The translations under genes and the position numbers were made by a program. Positions 1 through 59,200 of a stretch of DNA of 64,000 bases are shown piece after piece. Origin of the DNA: Naegleria gruberi (Eukaryota); NCBI GenBank assembly GCA_000004985.1, contig GG738873.1, one strand, 5' to 3'. Within the stretch, counting starts at the first letter, position 1. Every line of letters begins with the position of its first letter. The notes below the pieces were generated by a model that did no database searches, had not been told where the DNA came from, and saw nothing but the letters and a program-made list of their open reading frames with translations.

Positions 1-3000
1 TTACCATTTCCATTGCAAACAAGTGGATCTTCTGATTTAACACCAAAACAAATTGGTAAGGAACAATTTGATCCATAATATCCTTCTCTACAAATACTGA
101 CATTGCTAAAAACAGGAGATCCAACCAACATTGTTTGCCCACAAGCATAAATGTCTTGACTATTTTTGCAATCAGGTGAGCTGGAGGTAAAATTCAAGCC
201 CTTACTTGCAATGTAATTAGTGGCATTGTTGGAAGCACAATTACCCTCTGGATCTGTACATGTTGACTTAATTAGTTCAGTTTGGCATTTAGACCCTACA
301 AACCCAACATTACACTCACAGATGTTTGGCTTTATACAAACACCATGTCCTGAACATACACCGGCATCATTGCTAACTATATTGAAACACATTGGAAGAG
401 AACAAGAAAGTCCTGAATAGTTAGAGTTACATATACAAACATCAAAGCCGTTACAAACACCATTTCCGTTACATACTTTTGTCGAATTCATGTGAATTCC
501 GTTACACTTGAAAGCACCTCCAATTGCAGCAATATTGGTAATTTCAGACTCTTGCATTCCGTAAACTCCAAAAATCATGAGCTCGTCTATGTAACCATGA
601 GAAGGAGAAAAACCAACAGAACTGTAGGTGTTTTGAGATTCGTTCACAGAAATGTAATCATCATAGTGTTCAAATATATAATCTGGAGTAGACTTTCCAT
701 CCAAGTACACTCTGGTACCTAAAGAGCTTGATTTAACAACCAAAATCTTGTACCATTTGTCTAAAGTTTCAATCATCGGTGTCAACAGCGTTTGCTCTTG
801 CACCAAATTTGTCTGGGTTCCATTTATATATAGTTTAGTTCCTTGTAAGTAAAGGAACCAGTTAGCAAGATTGTTGATTGAAATAATATGTTTAACAGTA
901 TTGTCTATACTGGTAAGGTAAATCTTGAAAGATATTGCAAAGTCATTCACTGTCCTTCTTGTTAAAGCACAAGGAACATTTGAATCTAACATTGATTTAT
1001 CATTTGCTGCAAGTTGATGAAGAGAAGTGTTTGTTTGTGAGGAAATTGCAAAACCCATAGAATAGGTTTCTTGTCCACAGGTGGACAGCTCTTCATAGGC
1101 AGCATTTGTATAGTTTGAATCAATTTGACAGTTGTGACCATGGAAGCCAGAATAACATAAACAAAAATTCTTATATTTACAACTTCCATGCCCACTACAA
1201 ACATTATGATCTTCCTGTTTAACTCCAAAACACATTGGCTTGCATCTATAGGTAACATTAGGGTCTTGATAATAGCCTTCTTCACATACTGTGATATTAT
1301 AAGTTGTATTTGCTGTTATGTGAGCATCAAGAATTAGCTGTTTACAAGCTGCACTGGGAGCGACAGAGGATAAACATTCTTGAACTGTTTGATCTACAAC
1401 AGTATCAGGTTTTACAAAGCCATTTGGAAACTCAATTGGATTATAAGCTCCAGTTTCGTTTATCACACTTAGGTTGTTATGGATAAAAAACGCTTGAGGA
1501 TCTACACTATCCACAGCAGTTCCATTTTCATTGTGAACATATAAAATTGCATTATTGATTTGACACTCCAATCCTGTGAAAGAAAGGTCACATTTGCATT
1601 CATCGGTACTATGACAATCACCATGGCCTGAACAAACAGAAACGTTAGTTGCCGAGACGTTGTGGCAAAAAGGAACTTGGCAATTATTACCTTCACTATA
1701 AACACACTCACATAAATCTCTACCTAAACATAATCCTTTTCCTGAACAAACAATTGGACTATCATATCTAATACCATTACAATACCAAAGAGAAGATATT
1801 TCTTCAGTCATATTATAGGAAAACCAAAGAAGTTCAATATAGCCTTCCAATGCCAAGTCGCCAACATAACTTTCACCCTTAGTGTTGGTAACAAGATCCT
1901 CAGTAATGGTAGTGTCATTAAAAATGACATTACTATCAATAGAAATAGTTAAACCTCGTTCTGATGATTTGGTAATTTGAAATTCGTATAAATGATTTGG
2001 TAAAATGAGAGAAAGGCCTAATATAATAGTTTTTGATTTGAGTGATCCTTGCTTAGTTTCAAATATTAAATCATTTCCATTAGTAGAAAGTTTCCAACCG
2101 GCAATGTTATTCAAGTCTAGCAAAGTTTGGTTTCCATCTAAGGTGAAAAATAACACCCTAACAGTAACTTGGAAATTATTGTAGAGAATGATATATGGTG
2201 AGTTAGTGTTACCACTTGCCAGTGTTGCCCTCAAGCAGCCCTTATTATCACTAGCCGATTGATAGTCTTTCAAATTGTACATTGCATCCAATCCTCGAAC
2301 CTCAGCACCTAACATATATTTGTTGTCGAATATATTACGCAAGCTGAACGATTCTCCGTATGTTGCGATTATGGATTCAAAAATAGTGTCTTTGATTGCG
2401 CAATTGGACCCACTGTATCCAAAATCACAAGTACAGTTATTAAGACCATCACATTGTCCGTGACCACTACAAACTTCAGAAGTGTTGCTACCTATTCCGA
2501 AACATGTTGTATTTTCGCATTTATCTCCAGAGTAACCATCTTTACATTCACACAAGCTTTCACCGATGCAAATGCCTCTATTGTTGCAAACTGTTGGGTT
2601 TTTATCTCCATGGCAACCCACAGCACTATAAAAACCTTTTTTGAGGTGATAATCCTGATAGTCAAAAAAGGCAATAGCAACATTGTCTACAAGTCCATTA
2701 AGGTAACTGTCACCTCTGATACTCATACCAATAGTAGAACTCTGTGTTTGGTTTTGTCTTTTGTTAAACTTTGAGGTAAAAGTAGAATTAATATACACGT
2801 CTGTTGTATTAGCAACAAGCTTCAACCCTTGAGACGAGCTTTTCACAAGGGCCAAATAGAAAGGATAAGTGCTGACACTATATTGTGAGACAATTACTGA
2901 GTCGTCATATAATTTTAGTTTCAAAATGTTGTCAGTGTCAACAAATAATTCCCATGTTGTATCATCATCGTTGAACACAATGGTTTGGCGAGAACCTAAT

Positions 3001-5983
3001 ACATTCATCTTAAGCCAAAAGGCAACAGAAAAATCATTCGAAAGGCTAGTGAACATGGAGTATCCTGAGAATACAGAGTAGGATTGGCCAGAAAGGAGCA
3101 AAGCACTCCCCCCACCAGGTAAAAAACTGTTGGTGTAGCTTGCATTGTAAAACACAGAAGTGAAGTTGTAATTCTTGTCTAAAAAGTACATTCTATTTGG
3201 GCCAGTTGAGATAGGATTATTAAAATCATAAAAAGTAATTTTAGATGGTGATCTTTGGGTTTCCTTTAGATACTTCAAATAAAAATCAGTTCTGGCAAAA
3301 GAGAAGGCACAAACAGAAAATTCTGCAGTAAGAAAATCTCCAACAGATTGACAAGGTACGGGGTCATTGGATGAGGAAGGCAATGTGCCACCTAGTGAGT
3401 AACCAGAACTAGATTGGCTATCATCGAATTGTTGAGAGCAACCACCCTGTAAGTTTAGTGGACAAATTGGCTTGGAACCATTCAAGTCCAACTCCAACAG
3501 TTTTTCACATTCTAAACCTTCATAGTTAGGGTTACAAGTACAATTATCGTAGTTAACACATTTACCTCTACCACTGCAAACATCAGAGCTGTTGCCATTA
3601 ATTCCGAAACAAGTGTATATGGGGAAATCGCAAACTGTAGCATGATATGGTTCAGAGCATCTGCACTCATCAGAACCAATACAAATACCATTGTAATTAC
3701 AGTACTTATCAGCTTCCATTTGTTCTATTCCTTGACATTGCCATTCTCGTTCAATATCTCTCAACACAATGGATGAAGAATTGAATTTCCAAATTATTAA
3801 CCTGTCCAGAACACCTTCGAAGAAATTACCTTTTGTTTGAGGGTTGACCCCAATTGTGGAGTTATCTGCCTCAATACTCGGATCTACCAATTTGTGAAAA
3901 TCTTCGACTCTTTTATAATCATAAATTGCAATTTTACCATTGACTTCAATCGTTAAGCCATCCAAAGAGCTCTTCTTGATGTAAATATCATAATCGCCAA
4001 TTTCATCATTTTTTGGAGGTATTGACTCAGATTTGTGAGTAATAATTTGTACCTGTGCATTATTTGCATTGTGGTTTGTTGATTGGAAAATAAACTCCCT
4101 CTTATTGGACATTAATAATCTCCAGTATGAACCATCAGAAACATGGATTATTTCGTGATATATTGTTTCAATAAATTGTGCCACCGTAGAAGATCTAATT
4201 TTAAGGTTCAACACAAAATTATTTCTTAAATGTCTGAAAGGAGAGTTATTGCCGGATATGTCAATGAAATTTTTTCCGTCTAGTTTGAGAAAACCACCAA
4301 TATCACTTTGCACATCTCCAACCATAGAAAAATTACAATTACCTCTTAATTCTCCCAAAGAATCGTTGTAAGGCAAGTATTTGCGATTGAACATCCACTT
4401 GAGAGTATAACTATCTCCAAATATTGTTTGGTTAACTGTAGTTGGGATGAGCAAGAAACTACAATTGTTACCATAATGGAGATTGTCACAGAGGCATGAA
4501 TCTGTGTCAACACAAGTACCAAATCCAGAGCAAACCGCTTGTTGGGTAGATTGTATTCCAAAACAAGTTGAAATTGAACAATCAGGTCCAAGGTATTGTG
4601 GAAGACATTCACACAAGTACTCCCCAACACATTCACCTCCTCTACACAAATCTGGGTTATTAACAAACAAAGAATTATGGCAACCATGACCTTTCCATTT
4701 CATCTTCGTTAGCAAACGGTTAATTGAGAGGTTATCAACCCCAGCATAAAAGAAAGCATAAAATTCATCAAGATATCCATGAAATTGACCAGACATAGAA
4801 TTTAAATCATAACCAATAGAGCTTCTTTGAGAATTAGAGGAACTGGGTCTAGTATTTGACGAAAAGGAACCAGTTATATCTACCCTTTGCAAACATTGTT
4901 TTCCATCGATGTAAATACGTAATCCAGTAACAGAAGATTTGGAAATAAAAACATGGCTAAAAGAGCTAGTTAGTTTCTCGACAGTGTCAAAACAACGTGA
5001 ACCACAAATTTCAACTCCATCAACGTTGACACAAAGCTCAGGACTTCCTTCTAACAGTTTAAGAATAAGGTTCCATTTTGTTACTGTATAGTTTACAGAT
5101 AAAATAAACTGATCTGTTGACAAATAAGATGTATCTGACAATTGTAACCAAAAACTCAATGTAAAGTTATTTTTCAGTTCAATAAATGGTGTTCTATCTA
5201 GAAGGATGTAGCTTTGGTCGGTTAAACCAAATTTGAAAGATCTTCCTTTTTTTACCACGTTAGACTCCAAATCAATACCATTTGATGCTAGTTGGAGTGG
5301 TTTGGTTTTTTCTCTAACGAACTGAACTCCTCCAATATTGGTAAGGTTGTCAAAATTAAAATACATTTCATAATCAGCATCTACATCATAGCTGATATCG
5401 TCTTGTAATTCTGTACATTGAGGATTGCTAAGTATTTCACTTGTTGTTGAACAAATAGGTGATTGGTAAGAGTATTGAGATGTCCCTAAAGTTGCGATTA
5501 CGCTTGAACTAGAGGAAGACAAAGGGCAATTGCCTAGTAAATCTTTTTGGCAAGTACTTGCAGTCGATTGCAGAAGAGACTCACAAAACACACCTGAAAA
5601 GCCAGGATTGCACTGACAAATTTCAGGACCAATACAAACACCATTGCCACTGCAAACACCGGGAGCACCTTCAGACATTCCACCACATACAATAGTTTCG
5701 CAATTTGTATTGGCGAAGCCTGGGGAACAACTACATAAATCTTCACCAATACAAACACCGTTACCGGAGCAGGCATTAACAAGATCCGATGAATGAACAC
5801 CAAAACAACTGAAGGAGCTAACTTGGCATGTACAATAAATCAAGAAAAGAAAGACTATAAATACAAATCTTATTGCACAAATATTTCTAGTAGATAAAAA
5901 GCGGAATAGATGTGGTGTTGTTGGGCAAAGATCATCACCCTTGGCACCACAACAAAAACCTGTATTCCTCATATCATTCATTT
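1..5983 (-). CDS. Giant intronless extracellular protein. A signal/anchor N-terminus is followed by about 8 EGF-like modules alternating with about 200-250-aa LamG/ConA-like lectin-fold domains. It is partial: the C-terminus lies beyond the window start.
   Basis: Hand translation of the minus strand from the ATG (RC of 5981-5983) gives MNDMRNTGFCCG..., a hydrophobic stretch FVFIVFLFLIYC, then repeated CSG(N/H)GxCxGxxxCxCxxGFxGxxC EGF signatures. The frame stays open for about 5.98 kb to coordinate 1. It is absent from the ORF track only because no stop falls inside the window. The intervening domains repeat F-x-[LV]-x-FW-[LI]-[KQ] ... W-x-L jelly-roll-like motifs. The 3' end (1-103) is near-identical to 46958-47060 of the paralog at 46367-47288. 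Confidence 0.75.
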
Positions 5984-6141
5984 TTTGTTGTGAAGGAAGC
6001 AAAGTTTGCAAACAACAGCTTGATTTACGCCGTAAATAAACTGTAGAGATACAGTAAACCTGTACAGCCACAGTAAAAGGGGTAACACCAGAGTGATTTA
6101 TTACATACAGAAAGAAAATACATCAAGCGTGTTCCGGTAGA

Positions 6142-35341: not shown

Positions 35342-35935
35342 GATCAACATCAGGTACATCATGCCTCTGTTGATTCTTGGAGTAGTTTCACATCTATTAA
35401 CTCCAAGAATTTCACCACATCATCTCATCATCATTTAAATAGTAGTATTAATAGTAATTTTTGGAATTTAATTGTTCATCATGATTTGGAAATAATTTTA
35501 TTATTCGGAAACATTCAAGTTGGTACATCATCATCGGAACAACTACCAACCATCATCATTGTTATTTATCATCATTACAATAGTAATATTTGTGGAAATA
35601 AATCTGATAATAGTAATATTTTAGTGAAATTCAATATTTTTCACTAAAATCATCATCACTACCAGATTTATATGATAATTTAGAAAACTTTCAATCTAGT
35701 ATTGTTCAGCATGGTCGATATATATTAGGTAAAATTACTTCCGAACATTTCCCTATTGGTTATCATAATGTTAGGTACATGTATATATTTCAACACCATA
35801 TCTCAACCTGTACTTCACCAACTTGAAAAATGTCTTTCATCACTACTATTCAAATACATAATAAACAATATATTTATTATCAGATTTTCCTAGTTTTGTG
35901 TTTTTACCAACTTCGGGTATTCATAGTCACCAATC
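35342..35935. repeat. Dispersed repeat copy D1, about 600 bp, a direct copy of D2 at 40966-41560.
   Basis: It can be aligned by eye to 40966-41560 at roughly 65-70% identity in the same orientation. Example: catcatctcatcatcatttaaatagtagtattaatagtaattttt in D1 against catctctacatcatctatataatagtagtaatagtgatttttt in D2. The internal ORF 35279-35647 is H/S/N low-complexity and not credible as coding. Confidence 0.55.

Positions 35936-45782: not shown

Positions 45783-45812
<30 letters not shown>
45783..45812. repeat. (AT)15 microsatellite.
   Basis: A perfect AT dinucleotide run. Confidence 0.9.
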
Positions 45813-45815
<3 letters not shown>

Positions 45816-46366: not shown

Positions 46367-47288
46367 CTAATATGACAAACATATCCCACCAACGCATGTA
46401 TGAAAATTCGTATTTTTNNNNNNNNNNNNNNNNNNNNNNNNNNNNNNNNNNNNNNNNNNNNNNNNNNTATTATATGTGAAATTACCAATTGTAATATTAT
46501 TGCTTGTAAAGTTACTAATTGTAAAGTTACTAATTGTAATGTTATCACTCGTAAGGTTACGGATTGTTAAATTAGTATATGTGAAATTACCAATTGTAAT
46601 GTTATCACTTGTAAAGTTACTATTTGTAAAGTTACCAATTGTAATATTATCACTCGTAAGGTTAGTGTTTGTAAAGTTACTGCTTGTTGAATTAGTATAT
46701 GTGTAATTACCAATTGTAATATTATCACTTGTAAAGTTACTATTTGTAAAGTTACTGATCGTTAAATTAGTATATGTGTAATTACCACTTGTGGTATTCT
46801 CATATGTAAAATTATAATAGGTAAAATTGTTGAGTGTCAAATTCGGTATTTCCGTAATTCTCATCACCTCGTTTTCTGGATAATTTGCATCATTTTGGCA
46901 ATTTTGTCCCGTAATAGAATTTCTAAAACATTTACAAAAATCAGGCTTGGTACAATTACCATTTCCACTGCAAACAAGTGGATCTTCTGATTTAACACCA
47001 AAACAAATTGGTAAAGAACAATTTGATCCATAATATCCTTCTCTGCAAGTGGTTACATTTAAGAGACCTGTTGCATTCTTCTTGGAGCAAAGATACAAAT
47101 TATCACCTGTTGGGTTTGTACAATCAATTTCAAGATCAAGAGTTCCATTAATCTTTGTATTATTACATTTACCTTCAGGATTGGTACATGTCGCCATACT
47201 AACATTTGTTTGACACTGTGTGCCAATAAAACCAACTTTGCAAGAACATTGATTTGGTTTCTCACAATAACCATTTCCTGAACAAACC
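46367..47288 (-). CDS. Second paralog of the giant EGF-like/LamG extracellular protein, C-terminal part only. Its 5' end is in the N gap.
   Basis: The ORF ends at the stop at 46367. It contains EGF motifs (REGYYGSNCSLPICFGVKSEDPLVCSGNGNCTKPDFCKC). Positions 46958-47060 match window positions 1-103. The C-terminal approximately 130 aa are N-x-T pentapeptide repeats. The sequence continues open to the gap at 47289. Confidence 0.75.
46468..46860. repeat. 15-nt tandem repeat of at least 23 units with an approximately 90-nt higher-order period. It encodes N-[F/I/L]-T-x-x pentapeptide glycosylation-sequon repeats on the minus strand and is interrupted by the 50-N gap at 46418-46467.
   Basis: Units include tgtaaagttactaat, tgtaatgttatcact and cgtaaggttacggat. 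The translation reads ...NFTSDNITIGNFTNSNFTSDNITIGNFTYTNLT.... Confidence 0.8.
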
Positions 47289-50200
47289 NNNNNNNNNNNN
47301 NNNNNNNNNNNNNNNNNNNNNNNNNNNNNNNNNNNNNNNNNNNNNNNNNNNNNNNNNNNNNNNNNNNNNNNNNNNNNNNNNNNNNNNNNNNNNNNNNNNN
47401 NNNNNNNNNNNNNNNNNNNNNNNNNNNNNNNNNNNNNNNNNNNNNNNNNNNNNNNNNNNNNNNNNNNNNNNNNNNNNNNNNNNNNNNNNNNNNNNNNNNN
47501 NNNNNNNNNNNNNNNNNNNNNNNNNNNNNNNNNNNNNNNNNNNNNNNNNNNNNNNNNNNNNNNNNNNNNNNNNNNNNNNNNNNNNNNNNNNNNNNNNNNN
47601 NNNNNNNNNNNNNNNNNNNNNNNNNNNNNNNNNNNNNNNNNNNNNNNNNNNNNNNNNNNNNNNNNNNNNNNNNNNNNNNNNNNNNNNNNNNNNNNNNNNN
47701 NNNNNNNNNNNNNNNNNNNNNNNNNNNNNNNNNNNNNNNNNNNNNNNNNNNNNNNNNNNNNNNNNNNNNNNNNNNNNNNNNNNNNNNNNNNNNNNNNNNN
47801 NNNNNNNNNNNNNNNNNNNNNNNNNNNNNNNNNNNNNNNNNNNNNNNNNNNNNNNNNNNNNNNNNNNNNNNNNNNNNNNNNNNNNNNNNNNNNNNNNNNN
47901 NNNNNNNNNNNNNNNNNNNNNNNNNNNNNNNNNNNNNNNNNNNNNNNNNNNNNNNNNNNNNNNNNNNNNNNNNNNNNNNNNNNNNNNNNNNNNNNNNNNN
48001 NNNNNNNNNNNNNNNNNNNNNNNNNNNNNNNNNNNNNNNNNNNNNNNNNNNNNNNNNNNNNNNNNNNNNNNNNNNNNNNNNNNNNNNNNNNNNNNNNNNN
48101 NNNNNNNNNNNNNNNNNNNNNNNNNNNNNNNNNNNNNNNNNNNNNNNNNNNNNNNNNNNNNNNNNNNNNNNNNNNNNNNNNNNNNNNNNNNNNNNNNNNN
48201 NNNNNNNNNNNNNNNNNNNNNNNNNNNNNNNNNNNNNNNNNNNNNNNNNNNNNNNNNNNNNNNNNNNNNNNNNNNNNNNNNNNNNNNNNNNNNNNNNNNN
48301 NNNNNNNNNNNNNNNNNNNNNNNNNNNNNNNNNNNNNNNNNNNNNNNNNNNNNNNNNNNNNNNNNNNNNNNNNNNNNNNNNNNNNNNNNNNNNNNNNNNN
48401 NNNNNNNNNNNNNNNNNNNNNNNNNNNNNNNNNNNNNNNNNNNNNNNNNNNNNNNNNNNNNNNNNNNNNNNNNNNNNNNNNNNNNNNNNNNNNNNNNNNN
48501 NNNNNNNNNNNNNNNNNNNNNNNNNNNNNNNNNNNNNNNNNNNNNNNNNNNNNNNNNNNNNNNNNNNNNNNNNNNNNNNNNNNNNNNNNNNNNNNNNNNN
48601 NNNNNNNNNNNNNNNNNNNNNNNNNNNNNNNNNNNNNNNNNNNNNNNNNNNNNNNNNNNNNNNNNNNNNNNNNNNNNNNNNNNNNNNNNNNNNNNNNNNN
48701 NNNNNNNNNNNNNNNNNNNNNNNNNNNNNNNNNNNNNNNNNNNNNNNNNNNNNNNNNNNNNNNNNNNNNNNNNNNNNNNNNNNNNNNNNNNNNNNNNNNN
48801 NNNNNNNNNNNNNNNNNNNNNNNNNNNNNNNNNNNNNNNNNNNNNNNNNNNNNNNNNNNNNNNNNNNNNNNNNNNNNNNNNNNNNNNNNNNNNNNNNNNN
48901 NNNNNNNNNNNNNNNNNNNNNNNNNNNNNNNNNNNNNNNNNNNNNNNNNNNNNNNNNNNNNNNNNNNNNNNNNNNNNNNNNNNNNNNNNNNNNNNNNNNN
49001 NNNNNNNNNNNNNNNNNNNNNNNNNNNNNNNNNNNNNNNNNNNNNNNNNNNNNNNNNNNNNNNNNNNNNNNNNNNNNNNNNNNNNNNNNNNNNNNNNNNN
49101 NNNNNNNNNNNNNNNNNNNNNNNNNNNNNNNNNNNNNNNNNNNNNNNNNNNNNNNNNNNNNNNNNNNNNNNNNNNNNNNNNNNNNNNNNNNNNNNNNNNN
49201 NNNNNNNNNNNNNNNNNNNNNNNNNNNNNNNNNNNNNNNNNNNNNNNNNNNNNNNNNNNNNNNNNNNNNNNNNNNNNNNNNNNNNNNNNNNNNNNNNNNN
49301 NNNNNNNNNNNNNNNNNNNNNNNNNNNNNNNNNNNNNNNNNNNNNNNNNNNNNNNNNNNNNNNNNNNNNNNNNNNNNNNNNNNNNNNNNNNNNNNNNNNN
49401 NNNNNNNNNNNNNNNNNNNNNNNNNNNNNNNNNNNNNNNNNNNNNNNNNNNNNNNNNNNNNNNNNNNNNNNNNNNNNNNNNNNNNNNNNNNNNNNNNNNN
49501 NNNNNNNNNNNNNNNNNNNNNNNNNNNNNNNNNNNNNNNNNNNNNNNNNNNNNNNNNNNNNNNNNNNNNNNNNNNNNNNNNNNNNNNNNNNNNNNNNNNN
49601 NNNNNNNNNNNNNNNNNNNNNNNNNNNNNNNNNNNNNNNNNNNNNNNNNNNNNNNNNNNNNNNNNNNNNNNNNNNNNNNNNNNNNNNNNNNNNNNNNNNN
49701 NNNNNNNNNNNNNNNNNNNNNNNNNNNNNNNNNNNNNNNNNNNNNNNNNNNNNNNNNNNNNNNNNNNNNNNNNNNNNNNNNNNNNNNNNNNNNNNNNNNN
49801 NNNNNNNNNNNNNNNNNNNNNNNNNNNNNNNNNNNNNNNNNNNNNNNNNNNNNNNNNNNNNNNNNNNNNNNNNNNNNNNNNNNNNNNNNNNNNNNNNNNN
49901 NNNNNNNNNNNNNNNNNNNNNNNNNNNNNNNNNNNNNNNNNNNNNNNNNNNNNNNNNNNNNNNNNNNNNNNNNNNNNNNNNNNNNNNNNNNNNNNNNNNN
50001 NNNNNNNNNNNNNNNNNNNNNNNNNNNNNNNNNNNNNNNNNNNNNNNNNNNNNNNNNNNNNNNNNNNNNNNNNNNNNNNNNNNNNNNNNNNNNNNNNNNN
50101 NNNNNNNNNNNNNNNNNNNNNNNNNNNNNNNNNNNNNNNNNNNNNNNNNNNNNNNNNNNNNNNNNNNNNNNNNNNNNNNNNNNNNNNNNNNNNNNNNNNN

Positions 50201-53200
50201 NNNNNNNNNNNNNNNNNNNNNNNNNNNNNNNNNNNNNNNNNNNNNNNNNNNNNNNNNNNNNNNNNNNNNNNNNNNNNNNNNNNNNNNNNNNNNNNNNNNN
50301 NNNNNNNNNNNNNNNNNNNNNNNNNNNNNNNNNNNNNNNNNNNNNNNNNNNNNNNNNNNNNNNNNNNNNNNNNNNNNNNNNNNNNNNNNNNNNNNNNNNN
50401 NNNNNNNNNNNNNNNNNNNNNNNNNNNNNNNNNNNNNNNNNNNNNNNNNNNNNNNNNNNNNNNNNNNNNNNNNNNNNNNNNNNNNNNNNNNNNNNNNNNN
50501 NNNNNNNNNNNNNNNNNNNNNNNNNNNNNNNNNNNNNNNNNNNNNNNNNNNNNNNNNNNNNNNNNNNNNNNNNNNNNNNNNNNNNNNNNNNNNNNNNNNN
50601 NNNNNNNNNNNNNNNNNNNNNNNNNNNNNNNNNNNNNNNNNNNNNNNNNNNNNNNNNNNNNNNNNNNNNNNNNNNNNNNNNNNNNNNNNNNNNNNNNNNN
50701 NNNNNNNNNNNNNNNNNNNNNNNNNNNNNNNNNNNNNNNNNNNNNNNNNNNNNNNNNNNNNNNNNNNNNNNNNNNNNNNNNNNNNNNNNNNNNNNNNNNN
50801 NNNNNNNNNNNNNNNNNNNNNNNNNNNNNNNNNNNNNNNNNNNNNNNNNNNNNNNNNNNNNNNNNNNNNNNNNNNNNNNNNNNNNNNNNNNNNNNNNNNN
50901 NNNNNNNNNNNNNNNNNNNNNNNNNNNNNNNNNNNNNNNNNNNNNNNNNNNNNNNNNNNNNNNNNNNNNNNNNNNNNNNNNNNNNNNNNNNNNNNNNNNN
51001 NNNNNNNNNNNNNNNNNNNNNNNNNNNNNNNNNNNNNNNNNNNNNNNNNNNNNNNNNNNNNNNNNNNNNNNNNNNNNNNNNNNNNNNNNNNNNNNNNNNN
51101 NNNNNNNNNNNNNNNNNNNNNNNNNNNNNNNNNNNNNNNNNNNNNNNNNNNNNNNNNNNNNNNNNNNNNNNNNNNNNNNNNNNNNNNNNNNNNNNNNNNN
51201 NNNNNNNNNNNNNNNNNNNNNNNNNNNNNNNNNNNNNNNNNNNNNNNNNNNNNNNNNNNNNNNNNNNNNNNNNNNNNNNNNNNNNNNNNNNNNNNNNNNN
51301 NNNNNNNNNNNNNNNNNNNNNNNNNNNNNNNNNNNNNNNNNNNNNNNNNNNNNNNNNNNNNNNNNNNNNNNNNNNNNNNNNNNNNNNNNNNNNNNNNNNN
51401 NNNNNNNNNNNNNNNNNNNNNNNNNNNNNNNNNNNNNNNNNNNNNNNNNNNNNNNNNNNNNNNNNNNNNNNNNNNNNNNNNNNNNNNNNNNNNNNNNNNN
51501 NNNNNNNNNNNNNNNNNNNNNNNNNNNNNNNNNNNNNNNNNNNNNNNNNNNNNNNNNNNNNNNNNNNNNNNNNNNNNNNNNNNNNNNNNNNNNNNNNNNN
51601 NNNNNNNNNNNNNNNNNNNNNNNNNNNNNNNNNNNNNNNNNNNNNNNNNNNNNNNNNNNNNNNNNNNNNNNNNNNNNNNNNNNNNNNNNNNNNNNNNNNN
51701 NNNNNNNNNNNNNNNNNNNNNNNNNNNNNNNNNNNNNNNNNNNNNNNNNNNNNNNNNNNNNNNNNNNNNNNNNNNNNNNNNNNNNNNNNNNNNNNNNNNN
51801 NNNNNNNNNNNNNNNNNNNNNNNNNNNNNNNNNNNNNNNNNNNNNNNNNNNNNNNNNNNNNNNNNNNNNNNNNNNNNNNNNNNNNNNNNNNNNNNNNNNN
51901 NNNNNNNNNNNNNNNNNNNNNNNNNNNNNNNNNNNNNNNNNNNNNNNNNNNNNNNNNNNNNNNNNNNNNNNNNNNNNNNNNNNNNNNNNNNNNNNNNNNN
52001 NNNNNNNNNNNNNNNNNNNNNNNNNNNNNNNNNNNNNNNNNNNNNNNNNNNNNNNNNNNNNNNNNNNNNNNNNNNNNNNNNNNNNNNNNNNNNNNNNNNN
52101 NNNNNNNNNNNNNNNNNNNNNNNNNNNNNNNNNNNNNNNNNNNNNNNNNNNNNNNNNNNNNNNNNNNNNNNNNNNNNNNNNNNNNNNNNNNNNNNNNNNN
52201 NNNNNNNNNNNNNNNNNNNNNNNNNNNNNNNNNNNNNNNNNNNNNNNNNNNNNNNNNNNNNNNNNNNNNNNNNNNNNNNNNNNNNNNNNNNNNNNNNNNN
52301 NNNNNNNNNNNNNNNNNNNNNNNNNNNNNNNNNNNNNNNNNNNNNNNNNNNNNNNNNNNNNNNNNNNNNNNNNNNNNNNNNNNNNNNNNNNNNNNNNNNN
52401 NNNNNNNNNNNNNNNNNNNNNNNNNNNNNNNNNNNNNNNNNNNNNNNNNNNNNNNNNNNNNNNNNNNNNNNNNNNNNNNNNNNNNNNNNNNNNNNNNNNN
52501 NNNNNNNNNNNNNNNNNNNNNNNNNNNNNNNNNNNNNNNNNNNNNNNNNNNNNNNNNNNNNNNNNNNNNNNNNNNNNNNNNNNNNNNNNNNNNNNNNNNN
52601 NNNNNNNNNNNNNNNNNNNNNNNNNNNNNNNNNNNNNNNNNNNNNNNNNNNNNNNNNNNNNNNNNNNNNNNNNNNNNNNNNNNNNNNNNNNNNNNNNNNN
52701 NNNNNNNNNNNNNNNNNNNNNNNNNNNNNNNNNNNNNNNNNNNNNNNNNNNNNNNNNNNNNNNNNNNNNNNNNNNNNNNNNNNNNNNNNNNNNNNNNNNN
52801 NNNNNNNNNNNNNNNNNNNNNNNNNNNNNNNNNNNNNNNNNNNNNNNNNNNNNNNNNNNNNNNNNNNNNNNNNNNNNNNNNNNNNNNNNNNNNNNNNNNN
52901 NNNNNNNNNNNNNNNNNNNNNNNNNNNNNNNNNNNNNNNNNNNNNNNNNNNNNNNNNNNNNNNNNNNNNNNNNNNNNNNNNNNNNNNNNNNNNNNNNNNN
53001 NNNNNNNNNNNNNNNNNNNNNNNNNNNNNNNNNNNNNNNNNNNNNNNNNNNNNNNNNNNNNNNNNNNNNNNNNNNNNNNNNNNNNNNNNNNNNNNNNNNN
53101 NNNNNNNNNNNNNNNNNNNNNNNNNNNNNNNNNNNNNNNNNNNNNNNNNNNNNNNNNNNNNNNNNNNNNNNNNNNNNNNNNNNNNNNNNNNNNNNNNNNN

Positions 53201-56200
53201 NNNNNNNNNNNNNNNNNNNNNNNNNNNNNNNNNNNNNNNNNNNNNNNNNNNNNNNNNNNNNNNNNNNNNNNNNNNNNNNNNNNNNNNNNNNNNNNNNNNN
53301 NNNNNNNNNNNNNNNNNNNNNNNNNNNNNNNNNNNNNNNNNNNNNNNNNNNNNNNNNNNNNNNNNNNNNNNNNNNNNNNNNNNNNNNNNNNNNNNNNNNN
53401 NNNNNNNNNNNNNNNNNNNNNNNNNNNNNNNNNNNNNNNNNNNNNNNNNNNNNNNNNNNNNNNNNNNNNNNNNNNNNNNNNNNNNNNNNNNNNNNNNNNN
53501 NNNNNNNNNNNNNNNNNNNNNNNNNNNNNNNNNNNNNNNNNNNNNNNNNNNNNNNNNNNNNNNNNNNNNNNNNNNNNNNNNNNNNNNNNNNNNNNNNNNN
53601 NNNNNNNNNNNNNNNNNNNNNNNNNNNNNNNNNNNNNNNNNNNNNNNNNNNNNNNNNNNNNNNNNNNNNNNNNNNNNNNNNNNNNNNNNNNNNNNNNNNN
53701 NNNNNNNNNNNNNNNNNNNNNNNNNNNNNNNNNNNNNNNNNNNNNNNNNNNNNNNNNNNNNNNNNNNNNNNNNNNNNNNNNNNNNNNNNNNNNNNNNNNN
53801 NNNNNNNNNNNNNNNNNNNNNNNNNNNNNNNNNNNNNNNNNNNNNNNNNNNNNNNNNNNNNNNNNNNNNNNNNNNNNNNNNNNNNNNNNNNNNNNNNNNN
53901 NNNNNNNNNNNNNNNNNNNNNNNNNNNNNNNNNNNNNNNNNNNNNNNNNNNNNNNNNNNNNNNNNNNNNNNNNNNNNNNNNNNNNNNNNNNNNNNNNNNN
54001 NNNNNNNNNNNNNNNNNNNNNNNNNNNNNNNNNNNNNNNNNNNNNNNNNNNNNNNNNNNNNNNNNNNNNNNNNNNNNNNNNNNNNNNNNNNNNNNNNNNN
54101 NNNNNNNNNNNNNNNNNNNNNNNNNNNNNNNNNNNNNNNNNNNNNNNNNNNNNNNNNNNNNNNNNNNNNNNNNNNNNNNNNNNNNNNNNNNNNNNNNNNN
54201 NNNNNNNNNNNNNNNNNNNNNNNNNNNNNNNNNNNNNNNNNNNNNNNNNNNNNNNNNNNNNNNNNNNNNNNNNNNNNNNNNNNNNNNNNNNNNNNNNNNN
54301 NNNNNNNNNNNNNNNNNNNNNNNNNNNNNNNNNNNNNNNNNNNNNNNNNNNNNNNNNNNNNNNNNNNNNNNNNNNNNNNNNNNNNNNNNNNNNNNNNNNN
54401 NNNNNNNNNNNNNNNNNNNNNNNNNNNNNNNNNNNNNNNNNNNNNNNNNNNNNNNNNNNNNNNNNNNNNNNNNNNNNNNNNNNNNNNNNNNNNNNNNNNN
54501 NNNNNNNNNNNNNNNNNNNNNNNNNNNNNNNNNNNNNNNNNNNNNNNNNNNNNNNNNNNNNNNNNNNNNNNNNNNNNNNNNNNNNNNNNNNNNNNNNNNN
54601 NNNNNNNNNNNNNNNNNNNNNNNNNNNNNNNNNNNNNNNNNNNNNNNNNNNNNNNNNNNNNNNNNNNNNNNNNNNNNNNNNNNNNNNNNNNNNNNNNNNN
54701 NNNNNNNNNNNNNNNNNNNNNNNNNNNNNNNNNNNNNNNNNNNNNNNNNNNNNNNNNNNNNNNNNNNNNNNNNNNNNNNNNNNNNNNNNNNNNNNNNNNN
54801 NNNNNNNNNNNNNNNNNNNNNNNNNNNNNNNNNNNNNNNNNNNNNNNNNNNNNNNNNNNNNNNNNNNNNNNNNNNNNNNNNNNNNNNNNNNNNNNNNNNN
54901 NNNNNNNNNNNNNNNNNNNNNNNNNNNNNNNNNNNNNNNNNNNNNNNNNNNNNNNNNNNNNNNNNNNNNNNNNNNNNNNNNNNNNNNNNNNNNNNNNNNN
55001 NNNNNNNNNNNNNNNNNNNNNNNNNNNNNNNNNNNNNNNNNNNNNNNNNNNNNNNNNNNNNNNNNNNNNNNNNNNNNNNNNNNNNNNNNNNNNNNNNNNN
55101 NNNNNNNNNNNNNNNNNNNNNNNNNNNNNNNNNNNNNNNNNNNNNNNNNNNNNNNNNNNNNNNNNNNNNNNNNNNNNNNNNNNNNNNNNNNNNNNNNNNN
55201 NNNNNNNNNNNNNNNNNNNNNNNNNNNNNNNNNNNNNNNNNNNNNNNNNNNNNNNNNNNNNNNNNNNNNNNNNNNNNNNNNNNNNNNNNNNNNNNNNNNN
55301 NNNNNNNNNNNNNNNNNNNNNNNNNNNNNNNNNNNNNNNNNNNNNNNNNNNNNNNNNNNNNNNNNNNNNNNNNNNNNNNNNNNNNNNNNNNNNNNNNNNN
55401 NNNNNNNNNNNNNNNNNNNNNNNNNNNNNNNNNNNNNNNNNNNNNNNNNNNNNNNNNNNNNNNNNNNNNNNNNNNNNNNNNNNNNNNNNNNNNNNNNNNN
55501 NNNNNNNNNNNNNNNNNNNNNNNNNNNNNNNNNNNNNNNNNNNNNNNNNNNNNNNNNNNNNNNNNNNNNNNNNNNNNNNNNNNNNNNNNNNNNNNNNNNN
55601 NNNNNNNNNNNNNNNNNNNNNNNNNNNNNNNNNNNNNNNNNNNNNNNNNNNNNNNNNNNNNNNNNNNNNNNNNNNNNNNNNNNNNNNNNNNNNNNNNNNN
55701 NNNNNNNNNNNNNNNNNNNNNNNNNNNNNNNNNNNNNNNNNNNNNNNNNNNNNNNNNNNNNNNNNNNNNNNNNNNNNNNNNNNNNNNNNNNNNNNNNNNN
55801 NNNNNNNNNNNNNNNNNNNNNNNNNNNNNNNNNNNNNNNNNNNNNNNNNNNNNNNNNNNNNNNNNNNNNNNNNNNNNNNNNNNNNNNNNNNNNNNNNNNN
55901 NNNNNNNNNNNNNNNNNNNNNNNNNNNNNNNNNNNNNNNNNNNNNNNNNNNNNNNNNNNNNNNNNNNNNNNNNNNNNNNNNNNNNNNNNNNNNNNNNNNN
56001 NNNNNNNNNNNNNNNNNNNNNNNNNNNNNNNNNNNNNNNNNNNNNNNNNNNNNNNNNNNNNNNNNNNNNNNNNNNNNNNNNNNNNNNNNNNNNNNNNNNN
56101 NNNNNNNNNNNNNNNNNNNNNNNNNNNNNNNNNNNNNNNNNNNNNNNNNNNNNNNNNNNNNNNNNNNNNNNNNNNNNNNNNNNNNNNNNNNNNNNNNNNN

Positions 56201-59200
56201 NNNNNNNNNNNNNNNNNNNNNNNNNNNNNNNNNNNNNNNNNNNNNNNNNNNNNNNNNNNNNNNNNNNNNNNNNNNNNNNNNNNNNNNNNNNNNNNNNNNN
56301 NNNNNNNNNNNNNNNNNNNNNNNNNNNNNNNNNNNNNNNNNNNNNNNNNNNNNNNNNNNNNNNNNNNNNNNNNNNNNNNNNNNNNNNNNNNNNNNNNNNN
56401 NNNNNNNNNNNNNNNNNNNNNNNNNNNNNNNNNNNNNNNNNNNNNNNNNNNNNNNNNNNNNNNNNNNNNNNNNNNNNNNNNNNNNNNNNNNNNNNNNNNN
56501 NNNNNNNNNNNNNNNNNNNNNNNNNNNNNNNNNNNNNNNNNNNNNNNNNNNNNNNNNNNNNNNNNNNNNNNNNNNNNNNNNNNNNNNNNNNNNNNNNNNN
56601 NNNNNNNNNNNNNNNNNNNNNNNNNNNNNNNNNNNNNNNNNNNNNNNNNNNNNNNNNNNNNNNNNNNNNNNNNNNNNNNNNNNNNNNNNNNNNNNNNNNN
56701 NNNNNNNNNNNNNNNNNNNNNNNNNNNNNNNNNNNNNNNNNNNNNNNNNNNNNNNNNNNNNNNNNNNNNNNNNNNNNNNNNNNNNNNNNNNNNNNNNNNN
56801 NNNNNNNNNNNNNNNNNNNNNNNNNNNNNNNNNNNNNNNNNNNNNNNNNNNNNNNNNNNNNNNNNNNNNNNNNNNNNNNNNNNNNNNNNNNNNNNNNNNN
56901 NNNNNNNNNNNNNNNNNNNNNNNNNNNNNNNNNNNNNNNNNNNNNNNNNNNNNNNNNNNNNNNNNNNNNNNNNNNNNNNNNNNNNNNNNNNNNNNNNNNN
57001 NNNNNNNNNNNNNNNNNNNNNNNNNNNNNNNNNNNNNNNNNNNNNNNNNNNNNNNNNNNNNNNNNNNNNNNNNNNNNNNNNNNNNNNNNNNNNNNNNNNN
57101 NNNNNNNNNNNNNNNNNNNNNNNNNNNNNNNNNNNNNNNNNNNNNNNNNNNNNNNNNNNNNNNNNNNNNNNNNNNNNNNNNNNNNNNNNNNNNNNNNNNN
57201 NNNNNNNNNNNNNNNNNNNNNNNNNNNNNNNNNNNNNNNNNNNNNNNNNNNNNNNNNNNNNNNNNNNNNNNNNNNNNNNNNNNNNNNNNNNNNNNNNNNN
57301 NNNNNNNNNNNNNNNNNNNNNNNNNNNNNNNNNNNNNNNNNNNNNNNNNNNNNNNNNNNNNNNNNNNNNNNNNNNNNNNNNNNNNNNNNNNNNNNNNNNN
57401 NNNNNNNNNNNNNNNNNNNNNNNNNNNNNNNNNNNNNNNNNNNNNNNNNNNNNNNNNNNNNNNNNNNNNNNNNNNNNNNNNNNNNNNNNNNNNNNNNNNN
57501 NNNNNNNNNNNNNNNNNNNNNNNNNNNNNNNNNNNNNNNNNNNNNNNNNNNNNNNNNNNNNNNNNNNNNNNNNNNNNNNNNNNNNNNNNNNNNNNNNNNN
57601 NNNNNNNNNNNNNNNNNNNNNNNNNNNNNNNNNNNNNNNNNNNNNNNNNNNNNNNNNNNNNNNNNNNNNNNNNNNNNNNNNNNNNNNNNNNNNNNNNNNN
57701 NNNNNNNNNNNNNNNNNNNNNNNNNNNNNNNNNNNNNNNNNNNNNNNNNNNNNNNNNNNNNNNNNNNNNNNNNNNNNNNNNNNNNNNNNNNNNNNNNNNN
57801 NNNNNNNNNNNNNNNNNNNNNNNNNNNNNNNNNNNNNNNNNNNNNNNNNNNNNNNNNNNNNNNNNNNNNNNNNNNNNNNNNNNNNNNNNNNNNNNNNNNN
57901 NNNNNNNNNNNNNNNNNNNNNNNNNNNNNNNNNNNNNNNNNNNNNNNNNNNNNNNNNNNNNNNNNNNNNNNNNNNNNNNNNNNNNNNNNNNNNNNNNNNN
58001 NNNNNNNNNNNNNNNNNNNNNNNNNNNNNNNNNNNNNNNNNNNNNNNNNNNNNNNNNNNNNNNNNNNNNNNNNNNNNNNNNNNNNNNNNNNNNNNNNNNN
58101 NNNNNNNNNNNNNNNNNNNNNNNNNNNNNNNNNNNNNNNNNNNNNNNNNNNNNNNNNNNNNNNNNNNNNNNNNNNNNNNNNNNNNNNNNNNNNNNNNNNN
58201 NNNNNNNNNNNNNNNNNNNNNNNNNNNNNNNNNNNNNNNNNNNNNNNNNNNNNNNNNNNNNNNNNNNNNNNNNNNNNNNNNNNNNNNNNNNNNNNNNNNN
58301 NNNNNNNNNNNNNNNNNNNNNNNNNNNNNNNNNNNNNNNNNNNNNNNNNNNNNNNNNNNNNNNNNNNNNNNNNNNNNNNNNNNNNNNNNNNNNNNNNNNN
58401 NNNNNNNNNNNNNNNNNNNNNNNNNNNNNNNNNNNNNNNNNNNNNNNNNNNNNNNNNNNNNNNNNNNNNNNNNNNNNNNNNNNNNNNNNNNNNNNNNNNN
58501 NNNNNNNNNNNNNNNNNNNNNNNNNNNNNNNNNNNNNNNNNNNNNNNNNNNNNNNNNNNNNNNNNNNNNNNNNNNNNNNNNNNNNNNNNNNNNNNNNNNN
58601 NNNNNNNNNNNNNNNNNNNNNNNNNNNNNNNNNNNNNNNNNNNNNNNNNNNNNNNNNNNNNNNNNNNNNNNNNNNNNNNNNNNNNNNNNNNNNNNNNNNN
58701 NNNNNNNNNNNNNNNNNNNNNNNNNNNNNNNNNNNNNNNNNNNNNNNNNNNNNNNNNNNNNNNNNNNNNNNNNNNNNNNNNNNNNNNNNNNNNNNNNNNN
58801 NNNNNNNNNNNNNNNNNNNNNNNNNNNNNNNNNNNNNNNNNNNNNNNNNNNNNNNNNNNNNNNNNNNNNNNNNNNNNNNNNNNNNNNNNNNNNNNNNNNN
58901 NNNNNNNNNNNNNNNNNNNNNNNNNNNNNNNNNNNNNNNNNNNNNNNNNNNNNNNNNNNNNNNNNNNNNNNNNNNNNNNNNNNNNNNNNNNNNNNNNNNN
59001 NNNNNNNNNNNNNNNNNNNNNNNNNNNNNNNNNNNNNNNNNNNNNNNNNNNNNNNNNNNNNNNNNNNNNNNNNNNNNNNNNNNNNNNNNNNNNNNNNNNN
59101 NNNNNNNNNNNNNNNNNNNNNNNNNNNNNNNNNNNNNNNNNNNNNNNNNNNNNNNNNNNNNNNNNNNNNNNNNNNNNNNNNNNNNNNNNNNNNNNNNNNN

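What the first reader, a model, noticed from the sequence alone, without database searches (positions are those of the whole stretch)
1..5983. Intronless giant EGF/LamG modular protein not shown in the ORF track, with a second paralog at the other side of the cluster
The ORF track lists only small fragments here. The true minus-strand frame nevertheless stays open for about 5.98 kb, at least 1990 aa. About 8 EGF-like modules alternate with LamG/ConA-like jelly-roll domains. The last 103 nt in the window are near-identical to 46958-47060 of a second copy at 46367-47288. That paralog continues into a C-terminal tail of NxT pentapeptide repeats, so gene 1 probably has the same tail just beyond coordinate 1. 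The two paralogs, both on the minus strand, bracket the whole RCC1-Kelch cluster, which may reflect a large segmental duplication. In a genome that otherwise uses many small introns, a 6-kb intronless gene stands out. One explanation is retrogene or horizontal origin. Another is that repetitive module structure disfavours introns.
Basis: partly seen in the sequence, partly recalled or inferred. Interest (0 to 1): 0.6.

Follow-up and report, generated by a model that had tools for sequence, protein, structure and literature searches.

The report
Giant Naegleria EGF/LamG surface-protein gene
The 6-kb open frame is real, but it is only the first third of one already-catalogued, roughly 6,400-residue cell-surface protein gene of the amoeba Naegleria gruberi, and the supposed "second paralog" is an 0.8-kb orphan assembly fragment identical to an internal piece of that same gene.

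Summary
The minus-strand frame is open from 6122 to base 1, with an ATG at 5981 (1,993 codons). It encodes 13 complete EGF-like modules plus one cut by the window edge, alternating with five LamG-type jelly rolls.

The interpretation mostly fails. ORF1 residues 992-1993 are 100% identical to residues 1-1002 of N. gruberi XP_002676246.1 (NAEGRDRAFT_58267, 5,396 aa). So the gene continues about 13 kb beyond base 1.

The "paralog" at 46469-47287 is 100% identical to residues 2176-2448 of that same protein. It is an 821-nt island between a 50-N gap and an N run. The NxT repeats are internal, not a C-terminal tail. The near-identity with window 1-93 (93 nt, 96.8%) reflects an EGF block that recurs four times inside the gene.

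Codon usage matches the neighbours, so there is no sign of horizontal transfer or a retrogene. The neighbours have zero or one small 5' intron followed by 2-2.9 kb exons, so a long exon is not unusual here.

One small new point: the public model starts at an internal Met inside a LamG domain. The 991 upstream codons supply the only signal-peptide-like segment. The protein is therefore probably about 6,387 aa, type I membrane-anchored, and likely an adhesion or recognition receptor. This is ordinary and of low interest.

The parts
1..5981 (-). 5' part (codons 1-1993) of one giant gene. The frame is open from 6122 to base 1, the ATG is at 5981, and the gene runs off the window's left edge.
3009..5981 (-). 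991 codons upstream of the publicly annotated start. They are in frame, have the same EGF/LamG architecture, and hold the only N-terminal hydrophobic segment. This is the proposed true N-terminus.
3..3008 (-). Codons 992-1993, 100% identical to residues 1-1002 of N. gruberi XP_002676246.1 (NAEGRDRAFT_58267). The match is a single uninterrupted block, so the public model has no intron here.
5811..5888 (-). Hydrophobic segment, aa 32-57 (ICAIRFVFIVFLFLIYCTC...QVSS). Signal peptide or signal anchor.
5583..5807 (-). EGF-like pair 1 (aa 59-133)
4683..5582 (-). Cys-containing linker plus LamG-like module G1 (aa 134-433). Laminin_G_3 34.5 bits.
4461..4682 (-). EGF-like pair 2 (aa 434-507)
3738..4460 (-). 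LamG-like module G2 (aa 508-748). Below the Pfam cutoff alone. Linked to G1/G3/G5 by hhalign at 95.6% probability.
3507..3737 (-). EGF-like pair 3 (aa 749-825)
2616..3506 (-). Cys-containing linker plus LamG-like module G3 (aa 826-1122). Laminin_G_3 45.5 bits. The publicly annotated start Met992 falls inside this domain.
2400..2615 (-). EGF-like pair 4 (aa 1123-1194)
1782..2399 (-). LamG-like module G4 (aa 1195-1400). Below the Pfam cutoff alone. hhalign 95.6% together with G2.
1563..1781 (-). EGF-like pair 5 (aa 1401-1473)
1128..1562 (-). Cys-containing linker plus a single EGF-like module (aa 1474-1618)
507..1127 (-). LamG-like module G5 (aa 1619-1825). Laminin_G_3 33.7 bits.
285..506 (-). 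EGF-like pair 6 (aa 1826-1899)
93..284 (-). Cys-containing linker between EGF pair 6 and the conserved EGF block (aa 1900-1963).
3..92 (-). Copy 1 of a nearly invariant EGF block (C-R-E-G-Y-Y-G-S-N-C-S-L-P-I-C-F-G-V-K-S-E-D-P-L-V-C...). The block recurs at aa 1964, 2389, 2826 and 3247 of the reconstructed protein.
46469..47287 (-). Orphan 821-nt contig island, 100% identical (273 aa) to residues 2176-2448 of the same annotated protein (aa 3167-3439 of the reconstruction).
46955..47047 (-). Copy 4 of the conserved EGF block within the island. It is 96.8% identical in DNA to window 1-93, while the adjacent upstream sequence is only 43-72% identical.
46469..46834 (-). First part of an array of 30 phased N-x-S/T-x-x pentapeptides. 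The DNA period is 15 nt with 75/105/120-nt higher orders. The array is cut by the gap.
46418..46467 (.). 50-N assembly gap separating the island from unrelated AT-rich DNA to its left.
47289..64000 (.). Run of N, either the end of the scaffold with padding or a large gap. No sequence information.

Best explanation
Window 1-5981 (minus strand) is the first 6 kb of a single, very long Naegleria gruberi gene, already in GenBank as NAEGRDRAFT_58267 / XP_002676246.1 (5,396 aa, 'predicted protein').

Shown:
- The public model starts at an internal methionine (ORF1 Met992) that lies inside a LamG-type domain.
- The 991 in-frame codons upstream have the same architecture and contain the protein's only N-terminal hydrophobic segment.
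- Joining the two gives a protein of about 6,387 aa with exactly two hydrophobic segments: aa 32-57 and a transmembrane helix at aa 6283-6316, followed by a tail of about 70 residues.
- It has about 51 EGF-like modules, at least 12 LamG-type jelly rolls, and an internal array of 30 phased N-x-S/T pentapeptides.
- The 821-nt fragment at the other end of the sequence duplicates an internal segment of this gene exactly at protein level.
- Its 93-nt near-identity to window 1-93 arises because both contain copies (1 and 4) of an EGF block that recurs with a period of about 425 residues inside the gene.

Inferred:
- The protein is a type I membrane protein. The LamG-type lectin-like modules, held apart by disulphide-rich EGF pairs and a heavily N-glycosylated spacer, probably bind carbohydrate or protein ligands on substrates, prey or other cells. 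That would make it an adhesion or recognition receptor.
- The island is a redundant or mis-scaffolded repeat contig rather than a second gene.
For: - Open frame and domains.
- All five inter-EGF modules share the LamG hallmarks. G2 and G4 are linked to the Pfam-positive modules by hhalign at 95.6% probability, E 1e-8.
- The profile search found one outlier, P0140, with E 1e-227 and 11 stretches. It matches ORF1 992-1993 at 100% over 1,002 aa. It matches the island at 100% over 273 aa with no mismatch. It is N. gruberi XP_002676246.1 on a 461,873-bp scaffold.
- Met992 lies inside the strand 'FSVAFWLK|MNV' of module G3.
- The homologous ENA contig L002 aligns collinearly across that position (ORF1 aa 460-1454, 32% identity).
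- There are only two hydrophobic segments, and the N-terminal one is in the unannotated part.
- The EGF block recurs at aa 1964, 2389, 2826 and 3247. DNA identity jumps from 43-72% to 97% exactly over that block.
- Native codon usage.
- Nothing to the left of the 50-N gap matches P0140.
- The 90%-identity cluster of P0140 has one member.
Against: - The DNA to the left of the window could not be fetched. The island was therefore compared with the gene only at protein level, and a very recent true duplicate is not excluded.
- The function is inferred from domain content only. No paper mentions the locus. Both single-sequence AlphaFold models were unusable, with pLDDT 34 and 45. The C-terminal 435 residues have no detectable homolog.
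- The hydrophobic segment starts 31 residues after the ATG, which is long for a signal-peptide n-region. The true start could differ.
- No transcript evidence was available.
Confidence: 0.78

Rival explanations
1. Two paralogous giant EGF/LamG genes on the minus strand flank the RCC1-Kelch cluster as the result of a segmental duplication, and each ends in an NxT-repeat tail.
For: - Similar coding sequence is present at both ends of the real sequence, on the same strand.
- The 50-N gap could hide more sequence.
- The island was compared with the gene only at protein level.
Against: - The island is 100% identical over 273 aa, including the fast-evolving repeat array, to an internal part of the same annotated protein.
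- In that protein the NxT array is internal and is followed by about 2,900 residues.
- The DNA to the left of the gap does not continue the gene.
- No second near-identical protein is in the 90% cluster.
- Assemblies tend to break at repeats, so repeat-derived sequence at contig edges is expected (my inference).
Confidence: 0.12
2. The publicly annotated start (Met992) is correct. Window 3009-5981 is then either a separate upstream gene or a decaying or untranslated extension.
For: - The public model XP_002676246.1 begins at this Met.
- No transcript data were examined here.
Against: - Met992 sits inside a conserved LamG strand.
- The frame is open with no stop across the junction.
- The homolog in L002 is collinear across it.
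- Without the extension, a protein with a C-terminal transmembrane helix and about 50 disulphide-rich EGF modules would lack any signal sequence.
Confidence: 0.07
3. The gene is foreign or retroposed (horizontal transfer or a retrogene), which would explain the long intron-free exon.
For: - There is no intron in 6 kb.
- Outside this family, the LamG-like modules are closest to mostly bacterial or metagenomic LamG-jellyroll proteins.
Against: - GC3 and RSCU are indistinguishable from the neighbours, r = 0.97.
- The neighbours also have 2.1-2.9 kb intron-free exons.
- The EGF modules are closest to other Naegleria and Willaertia proteins.
- Internal modules are only 20-31% identical to each other, so the internal duplications are old.
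- N. gruberi is intron-poor overall. From memory of Fritz-Laylin et al. 2010, Cell 140:631, it has about 0.7 introns per gene. I could not check this here.
Confidence: 0.03

Closest known systems
Naegleria gruberi NAEGRDRAFT_58267 (XP_002676246.1 / EFC43502.1 / UniProt D2VHZ3), an uncharacterised 'predicted protein'
   Same: It is the same gene. There is 100% identity over 1,002 aa with ORF1 992-1993 and over 273 aa with the island.
   Different: The public model lacks the first 991 codons, including the signal-peptide-like segment. The window shows these in frame.
Metazoan EGF/LamG alternating surface and matrix proteins (Crumbs, neurexins, agrin, perlecan domain V, eyes shut). This comparison rests on my own knowledge.
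   Same: - A large extracellular region in which LamG-type jelly rolls alternate with one or two EGF modules.
- Like Crumbs and neurexin, a single C-terminal transmembrane helix and a short cytoplasmic tail.
   Different: - The LamG modules match Laminin_G_3 (PF13385), not Laminin_G_1/2. No such hit appeared at E <= 0.1.
- The EGFs are of the EGF_2/teneurin type.
- The tail ends in ...SYAVWN, which is not a Crumbs or neurexin PDZ-binding motif.
- There is no detectable orthology.
- The resemblance in architecture is therefore most simply convergent domain shuffling.
Giant EGF-repeat proteins of Heterolobosea (N. lovaniensis C9374_002875, N. gruberi and Willaertia magna predicted proteins)
   Same: They share EGF_2 / EGF_TEN / EGF_Teneurin modules at about 31-39% identity.
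   Different: None of the 19 hits aligns with any of the five LamG-like modules. They combine EGF with REJ, GPS, kinase, RCC1 or Kelch domains instead.
Unnamed homologs: ENA contig ERZ27315067 k141_657981 (P0141 / L002) and JGI metagenome fragment P0142
   Same: They show the same LamG_3 and teneurin-type EGF pair alternation. L002 is collinear with the N. gruberi protein at 32-37% identity along its whole 6.5 kb, with similar GC (0.354).
   Different: They come from a different, unidentified organism and are only fragments. It is unknown whether they have the NxT array or the transmembrane end.
Pentapeptide-repeat (quadrilateral beta-helix) proteins, including the glycosylated luminal domain of SV2. 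This comparison rests on my own knowledge.
   Same: The array x-N-[FLI]-T-x has a strict 5-residue period and resembles the A(D/N)LXX consensus.
   Different: Pentapeptide_4 scores only 14.7 bits against a cutoff of 38 and gave no hit in a longer construct. The AlphaFold model is unreliable. A flexible, densely N-glycosylated spacer is equally possible.

Membership tests
Laminin_G_3 / ConA-like jelly roll (PF13385) | Score above the Pfam gathering cutoff (27.6 bits) | tested here: met
   The whole ORF scores 94.1 bits. Alone, G1 scores 34.5, G3 45.5 and G5 33.7 bits. G2 and G4 fall below the cutoff alone.
Laminin_G_3 / ConA-like jelly roll (PF13385) | All five inter-EGF modules are homologous to one another | tested here: met
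   Shared motifs N-F-x-x-x-F/W, W-x-L, K-S-S-x-x-G-L and G-x-x-D-E. hhalign of G2+G4 against G1+G3+G5 gives 95.6% probability, E 1e-8, over 152 columns.
Laminin_G_3 / ConA-like jelly roll (PF13385) | Beta-sandwich jelly-roll fold | tested here: inconclusive
   The single-sequence AlphaFold2 model of EGF2-G4-EGF2 has pLDDT 34. The profile against PDB finds only 4qvs_A at E 4e-5.
EGF-like domain (EGF_2 PF07974 / EGF_Teneurin PF23106 / EGF_TEN PF25024) | Score above the gathering cutoff, and the six-cysteine C..C..C.C..C pattern | tested here: met
   EGF_2 112.7 bits (cutoff 22.1), EGF_Teneurin 106.6 (24.3), EGF_TEN 131.1 (65). There are 13 complete cores in the window and 51 in the reconstruction.
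Teneurins | Type II orientation and the other teneurin-specific domains beyond the EGF array | tested here: not met
   Pfam scans of ORF1 and of selected non-EGF segments of P0140 (about 2,600 residues) give only EGF and LamG families. The EGF array region (P0140 about 3750-4960) was not scanned. The hydrophobic segments are N-terminal and C-terminal, indicating type I topology.
Crumbs / neurexin / agrin-type LamG-EGF proteins | Laminin_G_1 or Laminin_G_2 domains | tested here: not met
   No PF00054 or PF02210 hit at E <= 0.1 for ORF1, nor at E <= 1 for the separate modules.
Crumbs / neurexin / agrin-type LamG-EGF proteins | Sequence orthology, including the conserved cytoplasmic tail | tested here: not met
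   The best hits of ORF1 are heterolobosean EGF proteins. The C-terminal 435 aa have no hit at E <= 1e-3.
Pentapeptide repeat family (PF13599 and relatives) | Score above the gathering cutoff (38 bits) | tested here: not met
   14.7 bits, E 0.032. No family was reported for the 390-aa construct.
   100% identical over 273 aa to an internal part of the same annotated protein. It is bounded by N on both sides, and the DNA beyond the 50-N gap is unrelated.
   The DNA to the left of the window could not be retrieved, and no reads are available.
Horizontally acquired gene or retrogene | Codon usage or GC3 deviating from the resident genes | tested here: not met
   GC3 is 0.281 against 0.25-0.32 in the neighbours, and RSCU correlates at r = 0.969 with the pooled RCC1-Kelch genes.

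The most novel reading that the evidence does not exclude
A discoban amoeba has independently assembled a Crumbs/neurexin-like receptor. It would be a protein of about 6,400 residues in which LamG-type lectin modules alternate with EGF pairs. Its 30 perfectly phased N-x-T pentapeptides would fold as a glycan-studded quadrilateral beta-helix rod, which would be a new extracellular, obligatorily N-glycosylated class of pentapeptide-repeat domain. The four near-invariant copies of one EGF block, kept about 97% identical in DNA inside otherwise about 30%-identical super-repeats, would be maintained by intragenic gene conversion because they form a repeated ligand-binding or processing site.
Probability: 0.12. 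Interest if true: 0.5.

Novelty: new member of a known kind. Interest (0 to 1): 0.22.

Why it matters
The practical value is mainly correction:
- The window's 'two paralogs bracketing a cluster' is an assembly effect, not biology.
- The public N. gruberi gene model appears to be truncated by 991 residues at its N-terminus, losing its signal sequence.

Biologically, this is one more very large, lineage-restricted modular surface protein in a free-living amoeba. It shows that EGF/LamG alternation, familiar from animal adhesion and synaptic proteins, also occurs in Heterolobosea, built from different LamG and EGF subfamilies. That is of modest interest for the evolution of adhesion-type architectures, and it offers a candidate for Naegleria substrate or prey recognition. 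Nothing here challenges current understanding.

Tried and rejected
1. Exact look-ups of two complete window ORFs and of P0140 found no record. The DNA to the left of the window could not be obtained.
2. The search for homologous proteins with the whole ORF returned only EGF-sharing proteins. It did not return the 100%-identical P0140, although that protein is in the collection. Self-hits appear to be filtered. The gene was identified only through the unindexed profile search.
3. Synteny: the N. lovaniensis RCC1-Kelch pair (61% identical ortholog of the neighbour gene) has no EGF/LamG gene within 7-10 kb.
4. Single-sequence AlphaFold2 of EGF2-G4-EGF2 (pLDDT 34) and of the NxT array (pLDDT 45) was unusable, so no fold search was run.
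5. The C-terminal 435 aa gave no homolog. The metagenome scan with a central 761-aa segment found nothing.
6. PDB sequence searches gave only generic EGF arrays (WIF-1, a mastigoneme protein) and one S-layer-domain protein for the LamG profile.
7. Hidden in-frame introns: the two GTATGT sites with in-frame acceptors fall on V-C codons inside intact EGF or Cys-linker sequence. One of them lies inside the block annotated as a single exon. Both were rejected.
8. Literature: there is no paper on the locus. A citable intron density for N. gruberi was not found in the held papers, and the Cell 2010 genome paper is not held.
9. A giant-virus origin of the scaffold was considered early on, because of the dense intron-poor ORFs and Kelch families. 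It was dropped once spliceosomal introns and the N. gruberi identity were shown.

Full report
**1. The observation**

The window holds 47,288 bases of real sequence. Bases 46418-46467 are a 50-N gap, and 47289-64000 is all N. On the minus strand one frame has no stop between 6122 and base 1, while the other two minus frames have 233 and 98 stops. The first ATG is at 5981, which gives 1,993 codons up to the window edge. By my base-composition estimate, the chance of 2,040 stop-free codons at this composition is about e^-146.

Pfam finds EGF_2 (11 stretches, 112.7 bits), EGF_Teneurin (9 stretches), EGF_TEN (131 bits) and Laminin_G_3 (94 bits). The ORF is missing from the ORF list only because ORFs that run off an edge are not listed.

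**2. Anatomy inside the window**

- A hydrophobic segment at aa 32-57 is followed by 13 complete six-cysteine EGF-like cores plus one cut by the window edge. The complete cores form six pairs and one single.
- The EGF modules are separated by five modules of 200-300 aa each.
- Three of these modules (G1, G3, G5) pass the Laminin_G_3 cutoff on their own. G2 and G4 do not.
- All five share the same hallmarks in alignment: N-F-x-x-x-F/W, W-x-L, K-S-S-x-x-G-L and G-x-x-D-E.
- A profile-profile comparison of G2+G4 against G1+G3+G5 gives 95.6% probability, E 1e-8.
- The modules are only 20-27% identical to each other, so the internal duplications are old.

**3. Organism and context**

Six neighbouring genes encode RCC1-like plus Kelch beta-propeller proteins. 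One of them is 61% identical over 99% of its length to a Naegleria lovaniensis protein. The decisive identification came from the gene itself, described in section 4: the organism is Naegleria gruberi.

The neighbours each align to one another as single uninterrupted blocks of 700-890 aa. Where adjacent ORFs are split, there is one small intron of about 40-100 nt near the 5' end, with a GTAAGT or GTATGT donor. So the local rule is zero or one small 5' intron followed by a 2.1-2.9 kb exon. From my own memory of the 2010 genome paper, which I could not check here, N. gruberi is intron-poor overall. The premise of a genome with many small introns is overstated, and a long exon is not anomalous.

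ORF1's GC3 (0.281) and synonymous codon usage (r = 0.969 with the pooled RCC1-Kelch genes) are native. Candidate in-frame introns inside ORF1 fall on V-C codons of intact Cys-rich modules and were rejected. There is no support for a retrogene or horizontal origin.

**4. What the gene is**

A word-indexed homology search with the whole ORF returned only heterolobosean EGF-repeat proteins, matching 8-10% of the query. None of them aligns with any LamG-like module.

A profile of the five LamG-like modules, searched exhaustively against 1.84 billion representatives, gave one extreme outlier. This was P0140, 5,396 aa, with 11 matching stretches and E 1e-227.

- P0140 residues 1-1002 are 100% identical to ORF1 residues 992-1993, as one uninterrupted block (window 3008 to 3).
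- P0140 is N. gruberi XP_002676246.1 / EFC43502.1 / NAEGRDRAFT_58267 / D2VHZ3, a 'predicted protein' on a 461,873-bp scaffold.
- The gene therefore continues for another 4,394 codons beyond window base 1.

**5. The 'second paralog'**

The minus-strand translation of 46469-47287 (273 aa) is found in P0140 at residues 2176-2448 without a single mismatch. That includes the repeat array, which would be expected to diverge quickly. No peptide encoded to the left of the 50-N gap occurs in P0140. So the listed ORF 46367-47197, with its stop codon, is an artefact of translating through N.

The fragment is thus an 821-nt island between two N runs that duplicates an internal piece of the same gene. That piece should lie about 3.5 kb to the left of the window, about 50 kb away from the island. 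The 90%-identity cluster of P0140 has a single member, so no near-identical second protein is annotated. The simplest reading is a redundant or mis-scaffolded repeat contig. A very recent true duplicate cannot be excluded without the nucleotide sequence, which I could not fetch.

The 93-nt near-identity (96.8%) between window 1-93 and 46956-47048 has a clear cause. The block C-R-E-G-Y-Y-G-S-N-C-S-L-P-I-C-F-G-V-K-S-E-D-P-L-V-C occurs at aa 1964, 2389, 2826 and 3247 of the reconstructed protein, inside super-repeats of about 425 aa that are otherwise only 28-31% identical. The window edge falls in copy 1, and the island carries copy 4. DNA identity jumps from 43-72% to 97% exactly at this block. 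That suggests intragenic homogenisation.

**6. The NxT repeats**

In the full protein the array is 30 phased N-x-S/T-x-x pentapeptides (aa 3318-3467). It is internal. It is followed by more LamG-like modules, an array of about 1,000 aa of EGF modules, a unique region of about 320 aa, a transmembrane helix and a tail of about 70 aa. Just beyond window base 1, the gene shares about 20 residues with the island and then enters another LamG-like module instead.

The array resembles the A(D/N)LXX pentapeptide-repeat consensus, but it scores well below the Pfam cutoff. The AlphaFold model is unreliable, with pLDDT 45. Its structure remains open.

**7. A correction to the public model**

- The annotated start, Met992, lies inside the conserved strand 'FSVAFWLK|MNV' of LamG module G3.
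- The frame is open across it.
- A homologous ENA contig (L002; 6.5 kb, GC 0.354) is collinear across it, covering ORF1 aa 460-1454 at 32% identity.
- The reconstructed 6,387-aa protein has exactly two hydrophobic segments. The N-terminal one (aa 32-57) exists only in the unannotated 991 residues. The other is the transmembrane helix at aa 6283-6316.
- A protein with about 51 disulphide-rich EGF modules and a C-terminal membrane anchor needs a signal sequence (inference).

The extension is therefore very probably real.

**8. How it most likely works (inferred)**

This is a type I membrane protein with an ectodomain of about 6,200 residues. Multiple LamG-type, lectin-like jelly rolls are spaced by rigid EGF pairs. 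A densely N-glycosylated segment sits mid-way, and a long EGF stalk sits next to the membrane. By analogy with other LamG/EGF surface proteins (my own knowledge), the most likely role is adhesion to, or recognition of, carbohydrate or protein ligands on substrates, prey bacteria or other cells. The short acidic, Ser-rich tail could couple to trafficking or the cortex.

No experiment, paper or conserved tail motif supports a more specific claim.

**9. Comparison with known families**

The protein is the already deposited N. gruberi gene. It resembles animal Crumbs, neurexin, agrin, perlecan and eyes-shut proteins in architecture only. Its LamG modules belong to Laminin_G_3, not Laminin_G_1/2, its EGFs are of the EGF_2/teneurin type, and no orthology is detectable.

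Outside N. gruberi, the only clear relatives are an unnamed ENA contig and a small JGI metagenome fragment with the same LamG_3 and teneurin-EGF combination. The next-best LamG matches are generic, mostly bacterial, LamG-jellyroll proteins.

**10. Verdict**

This is a real but ordinary feature: the 5' third of a known, uncharacterised giant surface-protein gene. The paralog, segmental-duplication, retrogene and intron-anomaly ideas are not supported. The useful residue is a probable 991-residue N-terminal correction of the public model, and the description of a lineage-restricted EGF/LamG architecture with an unusual phased sequon array.

Noticed in passing
window 6300-33000: A cluster of six paralogous RCC1-like plus Kelch beta-propeller genes on both strands, 37-46% identical to one another. 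Most have one small 5' intron and an N-terminal coiled region. The best outside match is N. lovaniensis C9374_002175 (61% identity, 99% coverage), which also sits next to a paralog. Synteny does not extend further.
   Followed up: partly
window 20782-20982 (minus strand, C-terminal part of the RCC1-Kelch ORF 20653-23130): ORF1's EGF modules hit this stretch by tblastn (39-42% identity). At least one RCC1-Kelch gene therefore seems to end in EGF-like modules, as in several heterolobosean RCC1/Kelch+EGF proteins found.
   Followed up: no
window 38671-39942 (+), with repeats at 35529-35918 and 41152-41546: A 423-aa ORF with a Phage_int_SAM_5 (tyrosine-recombinase N-terminal) hit. It is flanked by diverged direct repeats (73-81% identity, about 5.6 kb apart) in the AT-richer, gene-poor right part of the sequence. 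It could be a Crypton/DIRS-like mobile element.
   Followed up: no
window 42702-42774 / 45315-45387 and 45130-45178 / 45393-45441: Short, nearly perfect direct repeats (73 nt at 99%, 49 nt at 100%). (TA)n tracts lie at 45787-45815 and 46302-46327, just before the 50-N gap.
   Followed up: no
window 3-92 and 46955-47047 (plus two further copies outside the window): One EGF block of about 45 aa is kept almost invariant in four super-repeats of the gene (97% DNA identity between copies 1 and 4, synonymous sites included). The surrounding repeat units are only about 30% identical in protein. This suggests intragenic gene conversion or an unusual constraint.
   Followed up: partly
window 15340-18207 (+) and 43827-44954 (+): ATG-initiated ORFs of 955 aa and 375 aa with native codon usage but no Pfam family at E <= 1e-3.
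   Followed up: no
L002 (ENA ERZ27315067 k141_657981), 1-6497: The contig is called as three separate genes. It is collinear over its whole length with the N. gruberi giant protein, in three different frames, so it is one gene with introns or frameshifts from an unidentified Naegleria-like organism.
   Followed up: partly
tool behaviour: The word-indexed protein search and the exact-contig look-up did not return the window's own N. gruberi proteins, although P0140 is in the collection. Absence of close hits from those tools should not be read as absence from public data.
   Followed up: yes
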